Source of the DNA: Naegleria gruberi
Taxonomy: Eukaryota
Assembly (NCBI GenBank): GCA_000004985.1
Contig: GG738869.1
Length of the DNA stretch: 64,000 nt
Strand: one strand, 5' to 3'
Both the position numbers and the translations under genes were made by a program. Below the pieces are notes generated by a model. It made no database searches. It was not told where the DNA came from and saw only the letters and a list, made by a program, of their open reading frames with translations. Below are positions 40,567 through 52,048 of this stretch, piece by piece (position 1 is the first letter of the stretch; the number at the start of each line of letters is the position of its first letter).

Positions 40567-43197
40567 ATGTCTTACTTCAAGCCTTTGGAAATTAAGAGTA
40601 TTTTGACTAAAAAGACTGACCAATTGGATCTTGTCAGACCATTAACAAAATTTATTTCGATACAATATGGAGAACATATTTTGAAAGATTATGAAACTCC
40701 AATCTCTGCCCTTCAACAACGTAGAAATGAAATGAGAAATTTACAAGAGAAGAGTGAAGGATCAAGGGATTTATGTATTAGGTAAGGTTATTGTTCCGAT
40801 GACAATATTTATTAATATTATTATTATTTCGTGATTAGATATGCTGTTGATATGATGCAAGTTGCTAGCCATTTCCCAATTGATACAGGTGTTCAACGTA
40901 TACAAGTACAATTCTCTTGGTATGACAGTCTTAGTCGTGCTAGAACAACACAAGGAAATTCAAATTTTGAAATTGCAAACGTTTTATTTAATAGTGCTGT
41001 TTTATCTCATCAACTTGGTACATCACAAAATAGAAATTCCGAAGAGGGTTGTTTGGAAGCAGCCAAACACTTCCAAAGTGCTGCCGGAATGTTTACCTAT
41101 ATTCAAAAGAAGGTGTGTCCAAATATTGTAGAAAAACTTAATCAAGATTTAACAAACGAAGCTTTGGAAGCATTAGTTTTAATTTGCTTAGCCAATGCTC
41201 AACAATGTATTTGCGAAAAAGCTCACAAGAAGAATATGAAAGGAGCAATTTTATCAAAGTTATATATGGGTGCTAGTCATAGTTACAAGCTTGCTGCTGA
41301 AGTTATTGATGCCTCCAACACTACAAAGAATCTCTTTGACAAGACATGGAAGTCCTATCTCAGATTTTGTCAACACTACTTTGAAGCTTTGGCATCCTAT
41401 CTTATTGCTTTAGATCTTCATGAGGAAATGTGCATTGGCAAGGAAATTACAAGAATTATCCATGCTCAAAATTGTCTTGTTGATTGTTCCGAGCAAAGAG
41501 TGACTGGTAATTTAAAGCTTGTTATGGATGAATTGGATCAAGTACTCAACAATTTGTTAAAGACTGCTCAACATGAAAATTCAAAGATTTATCACGATCG
41601 TGTTCCTGAATTGAAGGATTTGGAACTTGTTGAAGCCAAGACAATGTCAAAGATTCAAGAAGTTAATGAAATTTCCGATTTATTGAAGGAAAAGATTGCT
41701 GATCCATTCTTTAACCTCTTCCCTATTCCAGTTATGGAAGCCAAGCAAAAGTATGAAGAAAATATCAAGAAGAGAATGAATGAAGTTTTTGTTCAAGCTC
41801 GTCAACATCGTGAATATATTAGAAATGAACTTTCAAAGATGGGACTCCCTGGATCAATTTTGATGGTTGACCAAAAGTCAGGATTCCCAGATGAGGTTCA
41901 CCACAAGATCTCCAAGATCAACTTGGAAGGAGGTATCAATAGATTATTTGAATTGAAGCAAACATTGGATGAAATGTCTGGTGAAACCAAGAATCAACTC
42001 GATTCCATCACTAAAAAGCTCGATGAAGAACAAAAGGAAGATGATGAATGTCGTATGCAATACGGAGCTAACAGATGGCCAAGATTGGAAAGCGCCAAGC
42101 TTACTAGCAATTTGAGAAAGCAAATAACTGACTATCAACAAAAGCTGAAGATTGCCATCAACTCTGATAGTTTGATTGATAAGAAGATTTCTGAAAACTC
42201 TGAAGGATTCAAATGGTTCTCTCTCGATAGTAAGACTTTGAATGACAAGATGCCACAAAGTCTCTCTCAAATCATGGAACCAAGCTCACAATTTGGCAAG
42301 TCATATTCTGACCTCAAGTTATATTTGGCACAACTTGACGATATTCTTGAACAAGAACTTGCCATTGAGTCCAACATTTCCAATTCATTCAAATTACAAG
42401 ATAAGGAGATTGAACTCAAACTTTTAGCTTCTCAAAGTAATTTGGAATCTTCTGTACAACAATTATTACAAGAACAAGAAGCCAAGTTTAAGGAACTTTT
42501 GGTTGATTTCCCACAAAAAGAAAATACCTATCTCCAATCCATTCAAGAAGCAAACAGAACTTTTGAACAACACAAGTCTCAAAATTCTATTCAAAGTCAA
42601 AGAGAACAAATTTTACAATTCATTTACAATGCTATCAACAAGTATAATGAAATTAGTGCCAATTTGCAAGAAGGTATCAATTTTTATACAACAATGCAAG
42701 AAATTACCAAGAAACTTGCTAATCGTATTGATGACTTTGTTTTTGCCAGAAGAACAGAAAAACAAGATATTATGGTCAATATTCAACAACAAATTAGTGG
42801 TGTTACAATTGATCCACAATATAATTATTCCTCTTCACAACAACCAAAACCAGTCCATGGTTCAAACACTCCTGTATATTCATCATCCACTATAACTTCT
42901 CAACCAACAACCACCAATACAACCAGCTCATCGCAATACCAACCTCAATATCAATACCAACCAAACGCTTATCAACAACCACCACAACAATATCAACCAC
43001 AAGTTGCCTACCAACAACAACCTCAATACCAACAAGCACAACCATATATGCAAGGAAGTGGTAGCTTTACTCAACCTCAATTCCAATACGTACAACAACA
43101 ACAACAACAACAACCTTACTACAATCCAAACGCTCAATACCAACAACAACAACAACCTTCGTATCAGAATCCTAATCAACCCCAATACAGAAGATAA
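40567..43197 (+). CDS. BRO1-domain protein (ALIX/Bro1 homolog) with a YQ/P-rich C-terminus. Two exons: 40567..40781 and 40839..43197; intron 40782..40838 with GTAAGG donor and GATTAG acceptor.
   Basis: The splice joins ...SRDLCI(R) to YAVDMMQVASHFPID.... BRO1 features: FSWYDSL, NVLFNSAVLSHQLG, coiled-coil V-domain-like middle. C-terminal QYQPQYQYQPNAYQQPPQQYQ repeats. Confidence 0.8.
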
Positions 43198-45420: not shown

Positions 45421-46723
45421 CTAAAGGTTAAAATCGAATTGTTCCTTATTGCATTCATTGCAAGTTGGAGTTTCAGGAACACCTTTCAAATTCGAAACAA
45501 AATGACTAATCAAAGCTGCATACCACATTACTGCACGATTATTAACCTGTTGAAGACAACTCAATGCAATATAAGGACAATACTTTTTACGTGGAAAGAT
45601 AATATGCTTGGGTTGTACCTTTATATTGTCGGTTTGATCTAGTTTCATTCCAACAATAATCACTTCACATTCAGGTTCCACTCGTTTGATAGCTCTGAAC
45701 CAATTTGGCGTATTTTTATAAGTGATTCTACTCGTAAGATCAAAGCTAATGATACACGCTGAAGCATTTACATAATAGGCATCTCTGAGTGCACCAAATT
45801 TTTCAGGACCAGCTGTTTGGAGTTAAATCTTCTCATTTCAAATCGAATGAAAACTTACCTGTATCCCATAAATTGAGATTTGTTTCCAAATTGCCAATTT
45901 TCAATTGGTACGAATTGACTTCACATCCCATAGTTACTAGATATCGTTTATCAAACTGAAAATCATCATTCATTGATCTGCAAAATGTAGTTTTTCCAAC
46001 TAGAAATTATTAGATTGTGAAATATTTCACAAATTACAACTTACCTCCACCATCTCCAATAATCAAAATCTTTTTCGTTTCAGTATTGTTGTTTAAAGTT
46101 GATGAAGAGTCAACCAATTGATCCTTATGTTGAAATAAGGAAGAAACTATGGAAATTTGCTTGTTAGTTGATTCACTTGCATTCACACTTGGTAATTTCC
46201 TATAGAAATGTGAAAAGTAAAAGTTGAACAGTTCCAATCTCGATTGAAATAATTCCATTAAACGTTGATTCTCAATTGTGGAACCCTCATTCATTGATTT
46301 AGTATCATCAACAACTATATTTTCCTGATTATTGGAATTTCTTGATACTTGATTCTTCTTTAAAATTCCCTCTCTTGTCAATGAATTTTCATACTTTACA
46401 ATAAATTTCAATAATTCATCTCTAATAATATATCGAACTTGTCTAATTGAAAAATTATCAATCAAATGGACTTGTTTAATTTCCTCCCCTTGATCATCAT
46501 CCATTTTCTTCACCTCTCCGAATCTTCTTTTCAAATATTCATTCGCCAATTCATATCGAAAAACCTTACAAACTCTTCCCACTGAAAAAATCATATCAAG
46601 AACATCAAAATATTCGCAGATTTGATAGAGCCAAATCTCTTTCGGAAGATTGATTGCCACTGTGGCAAGAATGTTTGATTCTTCTTCTTCTTGTTGTTCC
46701 ATTTTATTTTGTTTTGAGATCAA
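45421..46723 (-). CDS. F-box-like domain fused to a divergent Ran-like small GTPase, about 403 aa. Three minus-strand exons: 46723..46045, 45999..45859 and 45812..45421; introns 46000..46044 (45 nt) and 45813..45858 (46 nt), both with GTAAGT donors and YAG acceptors.
   Basis: N-terminal LPKEIWLYQICEYFDVLDMIFSVGRVCKVFRYEL (F-box-like). The GTPase is reconstructed across the introns: KILIIGDGGVGKTTFCRSMNDDFQFDKRYLVTMGCEVNSYQLKIGNLETNLNLWDTAGPEKFGALRDAYYVNASACIISFDLTSRITYKNTPNWFRAIKRV...IIVGMKLDQ. This is collinear with Ran (GDGGTGKTT...WDTAGQEKFGGLRDGYYI...DVTSRVTYKNVPNWHRDL...CGNKVD), but with G3 Q to P and G4 NKxD to MKLD. Confidence 0.7.
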
Positions 46724-47015
46724 AGAGTTTTTGAAGAAAATGGAATTTTAATGGAAAGATTAGAAATTCCCGCCAAGAGAATTCAAACGATGAAGGATCG
46801 TGGGTTCGAGACCCATTGGTGGTATCAAATTTTTAGTAACTAATAATTAATTATATCAAAATTAATGAAACAATTTGCAATACTTATTCCAATATTGGAA
46901 TCAATGTATTGAATATATTTCAATATCTTTTTACAAAGACCTATGAGGTCAGTTGAATATTATCTTTCGAATGTCTCTCTCAATGATTATGATAACTAAA
47001 ATTCATCCAAAAAAA

Positions 47016-47918
47016 ATGTCAAAAGTCATCTTCTTGATTTTACTCTTGTGTTTCATCGGTGTCATTAACGCTTCTGGTTCTATTTTCAACCCAACCGATG
47101 CAGAAATTGATCAAATTATCGAAATGTCAGACTCTGAATTTTCTTCTGGCACCAAATTCGCATCCCTCACAACTTTAAATGTTCGTGAAGGTCCTTGCAC
47201 TGATAAGAAAATTGTTACCACACTCGGATCTGATGTTGTTGTTACCTATACTGGTAAATCCATCACTGCCTGTGGTCATACTTGGTTCTCAGTTTCTGGA
47301 ACTTTTGGACAAGGTTATGCCTCATCAACCTATTTGAGACAAGTTGTTAATCCTGGAGCTGGATCTGCTTTTAGAAATTCTGCTGCTCAATGGGCTGCTT
47401 CAAAGGCTGGAAGTTGTTATTCACAAGCCAATAGATATGGAAATCCATGTTATGATTGTTCTAGTTTGGTAGGTTGTTGTGGAGGTTGAATGGTGATTGG
47501 TGGAATAATCTAATTTTTTTATTGATTGATTGATATATTTGAATGTTTCTTGCGCCTATATTAGGTTCATCTTGCTTATAAACAATCTGGTAAGCCTAAT
47601 GTTCCACTCACTACCAGATTGTATCCTAATAGTGCTGTTAAGGAAATTAGTAAGAATGAAATTGCTGCTGGTGATATTTTGTGGAGAGAAGTAAGTAGTA
47701 AGAGTGAAAACAATTGTTCTGAACTCTAGCTCAATTATTATTAATATTAATATTTATATATTTATATTGAATGAAAATTGAAATTTTTGATTAATTAGGG
47801 ACATGTTGGCATGTATCTTGGCAATGGACAAGTGGTTAATGCTGAAAATGAAAAGAATGGTGTTAAAATCAGAACTTTTGCCAATTTCAGATATACCAAG
47901 ATTTATAGAGTTCTTTAA
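47016..47918 (+). CDS. Secreted bacterial-type cell-wall hydrolase: signal peptide + SH3b-like domain + NlpC/P60 cysteine peptidase. Three exons: 47016..47468, 47565..47690 and 47799..47918; introns 96 and 108 nt with GTAGGT/GTAAGT donors and TATTAG/AATTAG acceptors.
   Basis: Signal peptide MSKVIFLILLLCFIGVINASG. SH3b-like TLNVREGPCTDKKIVTTLGSDVVVTYTG...WFSVS. NlpC/P60 blocks AAQWAASKAGSCYSQANRYGNPCYDCSSLVHLAYKQSG (catalytic Cys in DCSxLV), GDILWREGHVGMYLGNGQVVNA (catalytic His). All splice junctions are in frame. Confidence 0.8.
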
Positions 47919-48030: not shown

Positions 48031-48111
48031 GCAGGGGTTCCCGAGTGGTCAAAGGGGGTAGACTCAAGTTCTACTGCGCAAGCTTCGTGGGTTCAAATCC
48101 CACCTTCTGCA
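48031..48111 (+). tRNA. tRNA-Leu (anticodon CAA), class II with a long variable arm
   Basis: Acceptor stem GCAGGGG/CTTCTGC (two G-U pairs) plus discriminator A. D-region CCCGAGTGGTCAAAGGGGG. Anticodon stem GTAGA/TCTAC with loop CTCAAGT. Long variable arm. T-arm GTGGG-TTCAAAT-CCCAC. Confidence 0.85.
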
Positions 48112-50968: not shown

Positions 50969-52048
50969 ATGGCCAATTGGTTCGATCAAGATTTAATAGT
51001 GGCCAATGTTTTTCTGAATTTAAATCCAATGGAAGTTTTTCATCCACACAGTGGTTGTTTGATGGTTTGTAAGGATTGGAATCAGATTATTTGCAGTGCA
51101 GAATTTGCAAAATATTACTTTGAAACTTCTTTTTGTGTTTCGACTCCTTTTTTCAATGATGAAAATTGTCAAGAATTTGATAATCTTGACTCCCCAATTG
51201 AGCATAATTTAGAGGAAGCAATTGAGAGGTACATTCTTGGCTTGGAACACAAAATTGATGATGAATATGAGGAAGAAGTCAATGATGATGAACAAACAGT
51301 TGATGCATTGGATTGTGTGAAATTGTTTGAAAATGAGCTTGGAACCAAAACTAAATTAATGTGGAAAAACAATTTTTATAGAAAGTTTCTGACACTTGTT
51401 TCAATAATGGAAAGAGGTGATTATCCTCCACTCTGTAATTCAGATTCAGTCTCAGATACAACTCCCCTCCACGAACAGATTGGAAAATTATTGAAACCTT
51501 TAAATCAAAATCAAATCGACAAATTGAATATTATTTTGAAGAAATTGCAATTTTCCAAATTGTTGACCAACTCTATCAAAACAAGATCAGGAAAAGTTGT
51601 AATATTCCATGACTCGGGTTTGCCCTATATTCTATCATCTTTTTACGCAAATGTTTGTCTTGGCAGTATTGTTGTGTTAAATGTCGAAAGGCAATTTAAA
51701 AGTCAACTGTCTATTTTCCTTCCCCCATGCAGTGCAGAGGAGGAGACAACATTTAGAGATGTTCTCTGTGGACTATTATCTCCAATATTGAATATTATTA
51801 AGGAACGGAAATCCAATATCAGAAGACCTCTCAATACATACATGCTATTTTCTCAACAAAAAGTGAATGAGATAAAACTAAAAAATCCAACATTGAAAAT
51901 AATAGAGCTAGCAAGGATAATTGTCAACTGTTGGGAAAATTTGAATGAAAATGAACAACAACTATTTGTTGAAGAGGAAAACAAACTGAAAATGGAATAT
52001 CAGAGACAGTTGGAAAATTTCCAGTACATTATTTCAGGTTTAAACTAA
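50969..52048 (+). CDS. HMG-box DNA-binding protein (359 aa; HMG box near the C-terminus)
   Basis: RPLNTYMLFSQQKVNEIKLKNPTLKIIELARIIVNCWENLNENEQQLFVEEENKLKMEYQRQLENFQ fits the HMG-box consensus (RPxNAFxLF...W..L....K..Y...A...K..Y). Confidence 0.65.
   Translation: MANWFDQDLIVANVFLNLNPMEVFHPHSGCLMVCKDWNQIICSAEFAKYYFETSFCVSTPFFNDENCQEFDNLDSPIEHNLEEAIERYILGLEHKIDDEYEEEVNDDEQTVDALDCVKLFENELGTKTKLMWKNNFYRKFLTLVSIMERGDYPPLCNSDSVSDTTPLHEQIGKLLKPLNQNQIDKLNIILKKLQFSKLLTNSIKTRSGKVVIFHDSGLPYILSSFYANVCLGSIVVLNVERQFKSQLSIFLPPCSAEEETTFRDVLCGLLSPILNIIKERKSNIRRPLNTYMLFSQQKVNEIKLKNPTLKIIELARIIVNCWENLNENEQQLFVEEENKLKMEYQRQLENFQYIISGLN

What the first reader, a model, noticed from the sequence alone, without database searches (positions are those of the whole stretch)
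47016..47918. Bacterial-architecture SH3b + NlpC/P60 peptidoglycan endopeptidase carried as an intron-containing, secreted eukaryotic gene
The encoded protein has a eukaryotic-type signal peptide, a bacterial SH3b-like domain and a complete NlpC/P60 catalytic core. The catalytic Cys is in DCSSLV and the catalytic His is in GHVGMYLGNG. This is the canonical gamma-D-glutamyl-meso-diaminopimelate endopeptidase architecture of bacterial cell-wall hydrolases. The catalytic domain is interrupted by two canonical spliceosomal introns (96 and 108 nt). Both introns are placed exactly so that the conserved blocks DCSSL|VHLAY and GDILWRE|GHVGMY are restored in frame. Composition is host-like. It is therefore a domesticated gene, probably acquired horizontally from bacteria. 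A plausible role is digestion of bacterial prey or endobacterial walls.
Basis: partly seen in the sequence, partly recalled or inferred. Interest (0 to 1): 0.8.

Follow-up and report, generated by a model that had tools for sequence, protein, structure and literature searches.

The report
Naegleria bacterial-type cell-wall hydrolase gene
This is a real, intact, intron-containing gene of the bacteria-eating amoeba Naegleria gruberi that encodes a secreted bacterial-type cell-wall-cutting enzyme; it is of bacterial ancestry, already in the reference annotation as an unnamed 'predicted protein', and belongs to a kind of gene transfer already shown in other protists.

Summary
Exons 47016-47468, 47565-47690 and 47799-47918 (+), split by GT..AG introns of 96 and 108 nt, give a 232-aa protein. 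It is identical to the annotated Naegleria gruberi NEG-M protein XP_002676923.1 (NAEGRDRAFT_56173, 'predicted protein'). Pfam finds SH3_3 and NLPC_P60 above their cut-offs. The predicted structure best matches the Trichomonas vaginalis SH3b + NlpC/P60 enzymes, and Cys148, His195 and Asn207 align with the catalytic residues of solved enzymes.

The contig is eukaryotic: its neighbours include ALIX/BRO1 and HMG-box genes, and the gene's codon usage is host-like. A second near-identical strain has no indels in the exons but frame-breaking 2-nt and 17-nt indels inside the two introns.

Homologs occur in Willaertia magna (intronless) and in uncultured relatives whose introns sit mostly at other positions. 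N. gruberi also has a paralog. The acquisition is therefore old, and introns were gained afterwards. The nearest prokaryotic relatives, mostly Bacillota and phage or mobile-element lysins, are at most about 43% identical, and the donor is unresolved.

The likely role is cutting peptidoglycan peptide stems of bacterial prey. The bond specificity, secretion and splicing were not tested directly here. This is a new member of a known kind and of modest interest.

The parts
47016..47468 (+). Exon 1 (aa 1-151). It holds the signal peptide, an acidic linker, the SH3b domain and the first part of the NlpC/P60 domain up to DCSSL.
   Evidence: exact match to the annotated protein.
47016..47072 (+). Predicted signal peptide (aa 1-19, MSKVIFLILLLCFIGVINA|SG).
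   Evidence: hydrophobic core with mean KD 3.5 and small residues at -3/-1. Homologs also start with hydrophobic N-termini. No SignalP run.
47172..47336 (+). Bacterial-type SH3 (SH3b, Pfam SH3_3) domain, aa 53-107. Cys61 and Cys86 are present or absent together across the homologs, so they may form a disulfide.
   Evidence: 30.3 bits against a cut-off of 27; beta strands 47-103; alignment showing C61 and C86 both present in L003 and L005 and both absent in W. magna.
47364..47915 (+). NlpC/P60 catalytic domain (aa 117-232), split by both introns.
   Evidence: 46.2 bits against a cut-off of 23. PDB sequence hits. Foldseek hits, with TM normalised to target of 0.73-0.81 for isolated catalytic domains.
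47457..47459 (+). Codon of the catalytic Cys148 (DCSSLV), 9 nt upstream of the intron 1 donor.
   Evidence: invariant D147, C148 and S149; it lies at the start of helix 148-158.
47469..47564 (+). Intron 1: 96 nt, phase 0, GT..AG, with an in-frame TGA at its 7th codon. It is absent from the W. magna, L003 and L005 homologs, so it is lineage-specific.
   Evidence: (2-nt indel in the second strain).
47565..47690 (+). Exon 2 (aa 152-193).
47691..47798 (+). Intron 2: 108 nt, phase 0, GTAAGT..AG, 18.5% GC. An intron at the same site, 1 nt offset, is present in the L003/L004 homolog. It is absent from L005 and W. magna.
   Evidence: (17-nt deletion in the second strain).
47799..47918 (+). Exon 3 (aa 194-232 plus the TAA stop). 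It holds His195 (47802-47804) and Asn207 (47838-47840).
   Evidence: H195 aligns with the catalytic His. N207 aligns with His of 8er5 and Asn of CwlO.
46724..47015 (.). 292-nt intergenic spacer shared with the divergently oriented minus-strand ORF 46034-46723. Presumed promoter region (inferred only).
   Evidence: The region diverges more between strains than the exons do.

Best explanation
This is a functional nuclear gene of Naegleria gruberi (NAEGRDRAFT_56173). Its ancestor was acquired from bacteria, or from a phage or mobile element of bacteria. That happened before Naegleria and Willaertia diverged. The gene has since been fully 'eukaryotised': it has a signal peptide, host codon usage and lineage-specific spliceosomal introns, and probably extra disulfide-forming cysteine pairs.

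After the two introns are spliced out, the mRNA encodes a protein of about 23 kDa once the signal peptide is removed. The signal peptide sends it into the secretory or phagolysosomal route. The SH3b beta-barrel docks it on peptidoglycan. The papain-like NlpC/P60 domain (Cys148-His195-Asn207) cuts the peptide stems of bacterial peptidoglycan, most likely the D-isoGlu-diamino-acid bond (DL-endopeptidase). This helps the bacterivorous amoeba kill or digest prey.

Shown here: the gene structure, domains, fold, conserved catalytic residues, eukaryotic context, purifying selection and indel tolerance confined to the introns. Inferred: secretion, the bond cleaved, the biological role and the direction of transfer.
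For: - **Gene model.** It equals the reference annotation.
- **Domains.** NLPC_P60 and SH3_3 score above Pfam's cut-offs.
- **Sequence matches to solved enzymes.** PDB hits include the C. innocuum NlpC/P60 domain (8er5, E 8e-9), the B. subtilis DL-endopeptidase CwlO and MepS, with Cys, His and the third residue aligned.
- **Fold.** The AF2 model has mean pLDDT 83. The best full-length Foldseek matches are T. vaginalis NlpC_A2 and A1 (6biq, 6bim; E 5e-11), which have the same kinds of domain in the same order, but two SH3b domains rather than one.
- **Eukaryotic context.** ALIX/BRO1 and HMG-box genes are neighbours. Five other long ORFs of the window are exact matches to annotated N. gruberi proteins. 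Codon usage is host-like.
- **Second strain.** The exons show 696 identical, 3 mismatched and 0 gapped positions. The introns carry a 2-nt and a 17-nt indel.
- **Homologs.** Full-length homologs reconstruct cleanly with GT..AG introns at mostly different sites, and W. magna is intronless.
- **Selection.** Pairwise dN/dS is 0.23-0.53 with saturated dS.
- **Distribution.** N. gruberi and W. magna each have a paralog. About 3,400 library hits are otherwise dominated by prokaryote- or phage-type proteins.
Against: - No transcript or protein evidence could be consulted, so splicing rests on comparative evidence and on the reference annotation.
- Both introns are multiples of 3, although each carries in-frame stops.
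- Secretion is inferred from a heuristic only.
- The third catalytic residue is Asn rather than the more usual His, although CwlO also has Asn at that aligned position.
- The domain also matches Amidase_5, so amidase rather than endopeptidase specificity is possible.
- The NJ tree has no supported deep nodes. The donor, and whether there was one transfer or several, remain open.
- No hit labelled N. fowleri or N. lovaniensis appeared, so the gene may not be conserved across the genus.
Confidence: 0.85

Rival explanations
1. Same gene and fold, but the enzyme is an N-acetylmuramoyl-L-alanine amidase, or has some other stem-peptide specificity such as LD-carboxypeptidase or DD-endopeptidase, rather than being a D-isoGlu-diamino-acid endopeptidase.
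For: Pfam Amidase_5 ('bacteriophage peptidoglycan hydrolase') scores 32.8 bits over residues 122-222. The nearest prokaryote-type relatives carry Amidase_5, ELLD or PG_binding_1 annotations typical of phage lysins. Phage 'lysin', 'endolysin' and 'tail lysin' genes are hit by tblastn. The NCBIfam hit list includes the bifunctional DD-endopeptidase/LD-carboxypeptidase MepS.
Against: NLPC_P60 scores higher than Amidase_5. The best solved sequence and fold matches with assigned activity are DL-endopeptidases: CwlO and T. vaginalis NlpC_A1/A2.
Confidence: 0.25
2. The gene is a decaying or unexpressed relic of a transfer (a pseudogene), and the 'introns' are simply disruptive insertions.
For: Both insertions are multiples of 3 and carry stop codons.
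Against: - Both insertions have canonical GT..AG ends, and removing them restores conserved motifs exactly.
- The exons carry no indels and only 3 substitutions against a second strain, while the introns carry frame-breaking indels.
- All catalytic and nearly invariant residues are retained.
- dN/dS is below 1 against three homologs.
- An intron lies at the same site in the L003 homolog.
- The JGI gene model predicts the same splicing.
Confidence: 0.04
3. The sequence is bacterial contamination or a mis-assembly in the eukaryotic scaffold.
For: The domain architecture is typically bacterial.
Against: - It is embedded in a 747-kb N. gruberi scaffold between eukaryotic genes and next to a tRNA-Leu gene.
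- It has introns and host-like GC3 and codon usage.
- The same locus, with the same flanks, was recovered from an independent sequencing run, ERR1078381.
- The best bacterial identity is only about 43%.
Confidence: 0.01
4. The enzyme acts on an endogenous, non-peptidoglycan substrate, for example in cyst-wall remodelling or as a lipid acyltransferase like the eukaryotic LRAT/PLAAT branch of the NlpC/P60 superfamily.
For: The NlpC/P60 superfamily includes eukaryotic acyltransferases (general knowledge, not tested here). Naegleria forms cysts.
Against: The protein matches the classical P60 peptidoglycan-hydrolase branch and carries an SH3b cell-wall-targeting domain. No LRAT-type family appears among the hits. 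The signal peptide and cysteine pairs fit an extracellular or lumenal hydrolase.
Confidence: 0.05

Closest known systems
Trichomonas vaginalis NlpC_A1/NlpC_A2 (TVAG_119910, TVAG_457240; PDB 6BIM, 6BIQ): laterally acquired NlpC/P60 DL-endopeptidases (PMC6299479, PMC10461829)
   Same: Both are protist genes of bacterial ancestry with a signal peptide, SH3b and a C-terminal NlpC/P60 domain. These are the best full-length structural matches. The proposed role, attacking bacterial peptidoglycan, is also the same.
   Different: - Only 24% identity, and the two T. vaginalis SH3b domains are replaced here by one.
- The T. vaginalis triad is Cys-His-His; here it is Cys-His-Asn.
- The paper concludes that T. 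vaginalis acquired its genes independently of the other sampled eukaryotes.
- The Naegleria gene has two spliceosomal introns. No introns are mentioned in the T. vaginalis paper.
- No biochemical data exist for the Naegleria gene.
Willaertia magna hypothetical protein ABK040_009268 (P0003) and the N. gruberi paralog NAEGRDRAFT_65315 (XP_002679621.1, P0031)
   Same: They belong to the same heterolobosean gene family. They share the signal peptide, the 'CYSQ..R.GNPC[YF]DCS' motif with its cysteine pair, 'GD[IM]LW[RK].GHVG.Y.GN.QVV.AEN' and a C-terminal 'TK[VI]YR'. W. magna 009268 also has the SH3b domain.
   Different: - P0003 is 45-49% identical and P0031 43% identical to the window protein.
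- The W. magna gene is intronless.
- The N. gruberi paralog lacks SH3b.
- All are uncharacterised 'hypothetical' or 'predicted' proteins.
Bacillota, phage and mobile-element NlpC/P60 lysin domains of the 'GYSQxNRxGNPDYDCSS ... GDILWRxGH' type (Pfam NLPC_P60, Amidase_5, ELLD); solved relatives are C. innocuum CI_01448 (8ER5) and B. subtilis CwlO (8WT3)
   Same: They have the same catalytic-domain subfamily motifs and are 33-43% identical over the domain.
   Different: - They are prokaryotic or phage proteins, often parts of very long multidomain proteins or endolysins with PG_binding_1.
- They lack the cysteine pair flanking the catalytic loop: 23 of the 102 domains compared have it, and none of the named bacterial ones does.
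- They have no eukaryotic signal peptide or introns.
Other reported eukaryotic NlpC/P60 transfers: Acanthamoeba castellanii, Aspergillus and Metarhizium, and the house dust mite LytFM (PMC6299479, PMC5586350)
   Same: The concept is the same: a bacterial NlpC/P60 peptidoglycan hydrolase retained in a eukaryote that lives with or on bacteria.
   Different: These are different lineages. LytFM is a 14-kDa single-domain enzyme.

Membership tests
NlpC/P60 (Pfam PF00877; MEROPS C40) | Match to the family HMM above the curated threshold | tested here: met
   46.2 bits against a cut-off of 23, E 4.8e-12, residues 145-227.
NlpC/P60 (Pfam PF00877; MEROPS C40) | Catalytic Cys at the N-terminus of a helix, in a conserved D-C-S motif | tested here: met
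   C148 sits in DCSSLV. D147, C148 and S149 are invariant in 22 homologs. It aligns with the Cys of 8er5 and CwlO. The predicted helix is 148-158.
NlpC/P60 (Pfam PF00877; MEROPS C40) | Catalytic His on a beta strand, plus a third polar residue (His, Asn, Gln or similar) about 12 residues later | tested here: met
   H195 is nearly invariant. N207 (H+12) aligns with His in 8er5 and Asn in CwlO.
NlpC/P60 (Pfam PF00877; MEROPS C40) | Papain-like alpha+beta fold | tested here: met
   The catalytic half of the AF2 model has pLDDT about 87-97. Foldseek gives probability 1.00 to more than 40 NlpC/P60 chains, with rmsd 2.2-3.0 A over about 120 columns.
NlpC/P60 (Pfam PF00877; MEROPS C40) | Hydrolysis of peptidoglycan stem peptides (DL-endopeptidase activity) | not testable with these tools
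   Needs a recombinant enzyme and muropeptide analysis. Amidase_5 also matches, so the specificity is open.
Bacterial SH3 (SH3b; Pfam PF08239 SH3_3) | HMM match above threshold and a small beta-barrel | tested here: met
   30.3 bits against a cut-off of 27, residues 53-107. Predicted strands are 47-49, 54-57, 66-70, 75-85, 88-95 and 98-103. Peptidoglycan binding itself is not testable here.
Spliceosomal-intron-containing eukaryotic nuclear gene | GT..AG boundaries whose removal restores an uninterrupted, conserved ORF | tested here: met
Spliceosomal-intron-containing eukaryotic nuclear gene | The introns evolve as non-coding sequence, tolerating frame-breaking indels, while the exons do not | tested here: met
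   Against strain or allele L002, the exons have 0 gaps and the introns have 2-nt and 17-nt indels.
Spliceosomal-intron-containing eukaryotic nuclear gene | Spliced transcripts observed | not testable with these tools
   No RNA-seq access. The exact 232-aa product is on record only from the genome scaffold.
Laterally acquired eukaryotic peptidoglycan hydrolase (as defined for T. vaginalis NlpC/P60) | Patchy eukaryotic distribution against a mainly prokaryotic family, with the eukaryotic sequences nested among bacterial ones in a supported phylogeny | tested here: inconclusive
   The distribution is patchy and the family is overwhelmingly prokaryotic or phage. The deep nodes of the 117-column NJ tree have bootstrap below 30%, so nesting and the donor are unresolved.
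Laterally acquired eukaryotic peptidoglycan hydrolase (as defined for T. vaginalis NlpC/P60) | Orthology with the T. vaginalis genes (a shared transfer) | tested here: inconclusive
   Only 24% identity and weak sequence E-values of 3e-3 to 2e-2. No T. vaginalis sequence was included in the tree.

The most novel reading that the evidence does not exclude
The gene may be one member of a so far undescribed, widespread family of secreted NlpC/P60 hydrolases in amoeboid eukaryotes. Roughly 40 clusters at 50% identity share a signal peptide and a eukaryote-specific cysteine pair flanking the catalytic loop, which may form a disulfide. On this reading the family derives from one ancient transfer from a Bacillota phage or mobile-element lysin. 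It then diversified by duplication, lineage-specific intron gain and domain swapping. The swaps include paralogs in which SH3b is replaced by repeats of cationic amphipathic peptides that resemble antimicrobial peptides, which would amount to a natural 'membrane-permeabiliser + lysin' design for killing Gram-negative prey.
Probability: 0.3. Interest if true: 0.5.

Novelty: new member of a known kind. Interest (0 to 1): 0.3.

Why it matters
The gene adds Heterolobosea (Naegleria and Willaertia) to the protists that keep bacterial peptidoglycan hydrolases. Trichomonas has been shown to use such enzymes against bacteria. Here the gene's history can be read from its structure. Homologs with zero, one or two introns, mostly at different positions, give a clean small example of intron gain in a laterally acquired gene. 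The extra cysteine pairs suggest adaptation to the eukaryotic secretory pathway.

In practical terms, the gene is a candidate digestive or antibacterial effector of a model bacterivorous amoeba and a possible source of compact lysins. It does not change any concept: both the gene and the phenomenon are already in the databases and the literature.

Tried and rejected
- **Bacterial contamination.** Rejected on eukaryotic neighbours, introns, codon usage and recovery from an independent run.
- **Pseudogene.** Rejected on the intact spliced ORF, conserved catalytic residues, indels confined to the introns and dN/dS below 1.
- **Introner-like or repeated origin of the introns.** blastn of both introns against the window found only short low-complexity matches.
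- **Synteny between the window and the homolog loci L001, L003 and L005.** tblastx found only the gene itself, so orthology against paralogy of the environmental homologs stays open.
- **Donor identification.**
  - A 102-sequence, 117-column NJ tree with 200 bootstraps resolved only shallow groups: Ng_56173 + L003 at 98%, with L005 added at 86%.
  - An earlier Biopython attempt timed out.
The scan with A2 is biased by its search patterns.
  - Cluster look-ups of prokaryote-type hits returned no organism names.
- **AFDB fold search.** The library was unavailable.
- **Literature.** No held paper mentions NAEGRDRAFT_56173, D2VG09 or XP_002676923. Papers that hold both 'Naegleria' and 'NlpC' do not discuss this gene. 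The supplements of the T. vaginalis paper list no Naegleria sequence.
- **Other RNA genes nearby.** Rfam and ARAGORN found nothing in the gene region except the downstream tRNA-Leu.
Full report
**1. What is in the sequence**

The region 47016-47918 on the + strand reads as a three-exon gene.
- Exon 1 is 47016-47468, exon 2 is 47565-47690, and exon 3 is 47799-47918 with a TAA stop.
- Intron 1 is 47469-47564 (96 nt, GTAGGT...TTAG).
- Intron 2 is 47691-47798 (108 nt, GTAAGT...TTAG, 18.5% GC).
- Both introns are in phase 0. Both lengths are multiples of three, but each intron has in-frame stops, so read-through would truncate the protein.

**2. Where the window comes from**

Exact look-ups show the window is Naegleria gruberi NEG-M.
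- The spliced 232-aa product is identical to XP_002676923.1 / EFC44179.1 / UniProt D2VG09 (NAEGRDRAFT_56173, 'predicted protein') on a 747-kb scaffold.
- Four other long ORFs of the window are also exact matches to annotated N. gruberi proteins.
- Neighbouring genes are plainly eukaryotic: an ALIX/BRO1 protein at 40831-43197 and an HMG-box protein at 50969-52048.
- A tRNA-Leu(CAA) gene lies 113 nt downstream, at 48031-48111.
- The gene's composition is host-like. GC3 is 0.245 against 0.30 +/- 0.04 for 15 long ORFs of the window. RSCU correlation with those ORFs is 0.87, while individual host ORFs against the rest average 0.84.
- Contamination is excluded.

**3. The protein**

*Family matches*
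- Pfam finds NLPC_P60 (46.2 bits, cut-off 23, residues 145-227), SH3_3 (30.3 bits, cut-off 27, residues 53-107) and an overlapping Amidase_5 match (32.8 bits, cut-off 21).
- NCBIfam gives only partial, sub-threshold matches to named bacterial cell-wall hydrolases such as EntFM, p60/Iap, RipC and MepS. The protein is therefore not an equivalog of any of them.

*Matches to solved structures*
- By sequence, the best solved relatives are the Clostridium innocuum NlpC/P60 domain 8ER5 (E 8e-9), B. subtilis CwlO (5e-7) and E. coli MepS/Spr. The T. vaginalis enzymes match weakly.
- In those alignments Cys148 (DCSSLV) and His195 (GHVGMY) sit on the catalytic Cys and His. Asn207 (His+12) aligns with His in 8ER5 and with Asn in CwlO.
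- An AlphaFold2 model built from 22 homologs has mean pLDDT 83, and above 87 over most of the catalytic domain. It shows an N-terminal helix, a beta-barrel at residues 47-103 and an alpha+beta catalytic domain with Cys148 at the start of helix 148-158.
- Foldseek against the PDB ranks T. vaginalis NlpC_A2 and A1 (6BIQ, 6BIM; SH3b + NlpC/P60) first, at E 5e-11. Dozens of bacterial NlpC/P60 domains follow at rmsd 2.2-3.0 A.

*N-terminus and mature protein*
- The N-terminus (MSK + VIFLILLLCFIGVI + NA|SG) has the form of a cleavable signal peptide.
- The mature protein would be about 23 kDa with pI about 8.9. No dedicated predictor was available.

**4. Are the introns real?**

Three lines of comparative evidence support them, alongside the agreement with the reference annotation.

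(a) *A second strain.* A Logan assembly of run ERR1078381 (L002) holds the same locus from a slightly diverged strain or allele.
- Across the three exons there are 696 identical positions, 3 substitutions and no gaps.
- Intron 1 carries a 2-nt insertion and intron 2 a 17-nt deletion. Both break the frame, so they are tolerable only in non-coding sequence.

(b) *Homologs reconstruct cleanly with GT..AG introns at mostly different positions*.
- The environmental homolog L003/L004 (about 70% identical to the window protein in the ORF-derived fragment P0002; 57% over the whole tblastn alignment) has a 142-nt intron in the SH3b region. It also has a 114-nt intron at the WRE-G site, 1 nt offset from N. 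gruberi intron 2. It has no intron 1.
- L005 (58% identical in the tblastn alignment) has a single 59-nt intron in the SH3b region.
- The Willaertia magna gene (45%) is intronless.

(c) *Selection.* Pairwise dN/dS among the four coding sequences is 0.23-0.53 with saturated dS, and every nearly invariant residue is kept.

Intron 1 therefore looks like a lineage-specific gain. Neither intron has related copies elsewhere in the window. Transcripts could not be examined.

**5. Relatives and origin**

*Eukaryote-type relatives*
- A search of 1.84 billion representative proteins found 3,363 hits at E <= 1e-3.
- The best roughly 40 clusters look like eukaryotic secreted proteins. They are short, have a hydrophobic N-terminus and a C-terminal '...YRP[NK]', and carry a cysteine pair flanking the loop before the catalytic Cys ('CYSQ..R.GNPC[YF]DCS').
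- Named members are a second N. gruberi gene (NAEGRDRAFT_65315, without SH3b) and two W. magna genes.
- Some unnamed members lie on contigs with eukaryote-type genes such as MBOAT, WD40 and SH3_1.
- Several ORF-caller fragments stop at or near the position of intron 2, which hints at introns there too.
- The cysteine pair occurs in 23 of the 102 catalytic domains compared and in none of the named bacterial ones.
- C61 and C86 in the SH3b domain are likewise present together or absent together across the four aligned homologs. Both pairs would fit disulfides of a secreted protein, but this is an inference.

*Prokaryote-type relatives*
- The next tier is prokaryotic or phage. It comprises 'GYSQxNRxGNPDYDCSS...GDILWRxGH' domains annotated as Amidase_5, ELLD or PG_binding_1, phage lysins and tail lysins at 30-37% identity, and genomes of mostly Bacillota at no more than about 43%. 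The Bacillota include Clostridia, Faecalibacillus, Ruminococcus and Lachnospiraceae.
- The genome scan is biased by its search patterns.

*Tree*
- An NJ tree of 102 catalytic domains (117 columns, 200 bootstraps) supports only shallow groups: Ng_56173 + L003 at 98%, with L005 added at 86%, and Wm_002371 + P0043 at 100%.
- All deep nodes are below 30%.
- Bacterial ancestry is therefore the best reading of the distribution, and the acquisition predates the Naegleria-Willaertia split. The donor, and whether there was one transfer or several, are not resolved.

**6. How it most likely works**

*Shown here*
- An intact, selectively maintained eukaryotic gene.
- An N-terminus with the form of a signal peptide, followed by an SH3b domain and a complete NlpC/P60 active site.

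*Inferred*
- The protein enters the secretory or phagolysosomal pathway.
- SH3b binds peptidoglycan.
- The Cys148-His195-Asn207 triad cleaves stem peptides of prey bacteria. The most likely bond is D-isoGlu-diamino acid, as demonstrated for the structurally closest characterised eukaryotic enzymes, T. vaginalis NlpC_A1/A2 (PMC6299479), and named for CwlO.
- A different specificity, such as amidase, remains possible because of the Amidase_5 and phage-lysin affinity.

**7. Comparison with what is known**

- Laterally acquired NlpC/P60 genes are documented in T. vaginalis, where structures, activity, induction by bacteria and competitive benefit have all been shown. They are also reported in T. 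gallinae and T. tenax, Acanthamoeba, some fungi and dust mites (PMC6299479, PMC10461829, PMC12612818, PMC5586350).
- No held paper mentions this Naegleria gene.
- It passes every sequence and structure criterion of NlpC/P60 and SH3b membership. It is not demonstrably orthologous to the Trichomonas genes (24% identity).
- The differences worth noting are the spliceosomal introns with lineage-specific positions, the Cys-His-Asn triad, the single SH3b domain and the eukaryote-specific cysteine pairs.

**8. Verdict**

- This is a new, uncharacterised member of a known kind, already present as an unnamed gene model. Interest is modest (0.3).
- The most novel reading still open is that it marks a broad, undescribed amoebal family of disulfide-stabilised lysins, some fused to peptide repeats that resemble antimicrobial peptides.

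Noticed in passing
Related proteins P0042 (Willaertia magna KAL9645168.1), P0043, and P0009 (L007 5001-6206): In these paralogs the SH3b module is replaced by two to five repeats of short cationic amphipathic peptides separated by acidic spacers. Examples are 'SDKFFKKLGKLFKKALPYLKAGVKEYVNN' and 'KKIKIDDIFNWVGKGKQVYDIFKGMEDSE'. They are fused to the same NlpC/P60 domain. They look like antimicrobial-peptide modules joined to a lysin.
   Followed up: no
window 48031-48111 (+): A tRNA-Leu(CAA) gene lies 113 nt downstream of the hydrolase stop codon (ARAGORN; Rfam tRNA 48.7 bits).
   Followed up: yes
window 46790-46830: A T-arm or Pol III B-box-like motif (GTGGGTTCGAGACCCAT) lies in the intergenic spacer upstream of the gene. 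Neither ARAGORN nor Rfam calls a tRNA there. The stretch differs at several positions in the second strain. It may be a tRNA relic.
   Followed up: partly
L006 374-973 and 1161-1799 (GCA_016850925.1, contig JAESGV010005954.1): Two SH3b + NlpC/P60 genes of the same 'Cys-pair' family (P0005, P0036) sit in tandem on a 42% GC contig of an NCBI assembly whose organism was not identified here.
   Followed up: partly
window 46034-46723 (-): A divergently oriented 229-aa ORF lies 292 nt upstream of the hydrolase gene. It has no Pfam match. The two genes may share a bidirectional promoter region.
   Followed up: partly
L003 5093-5206 versus window 47691-47798: The intron shared between N. gruberi and the L003 homolog differs by one nucleotide in position: phase 0 (GAA|GT...AG|GGA) against phase 1 (GAAG|GT...AG|GA). 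The same protein sequence, WREGH, is encoded in both. This is an apparent 1-nt intron slide.
   Followed up: partly
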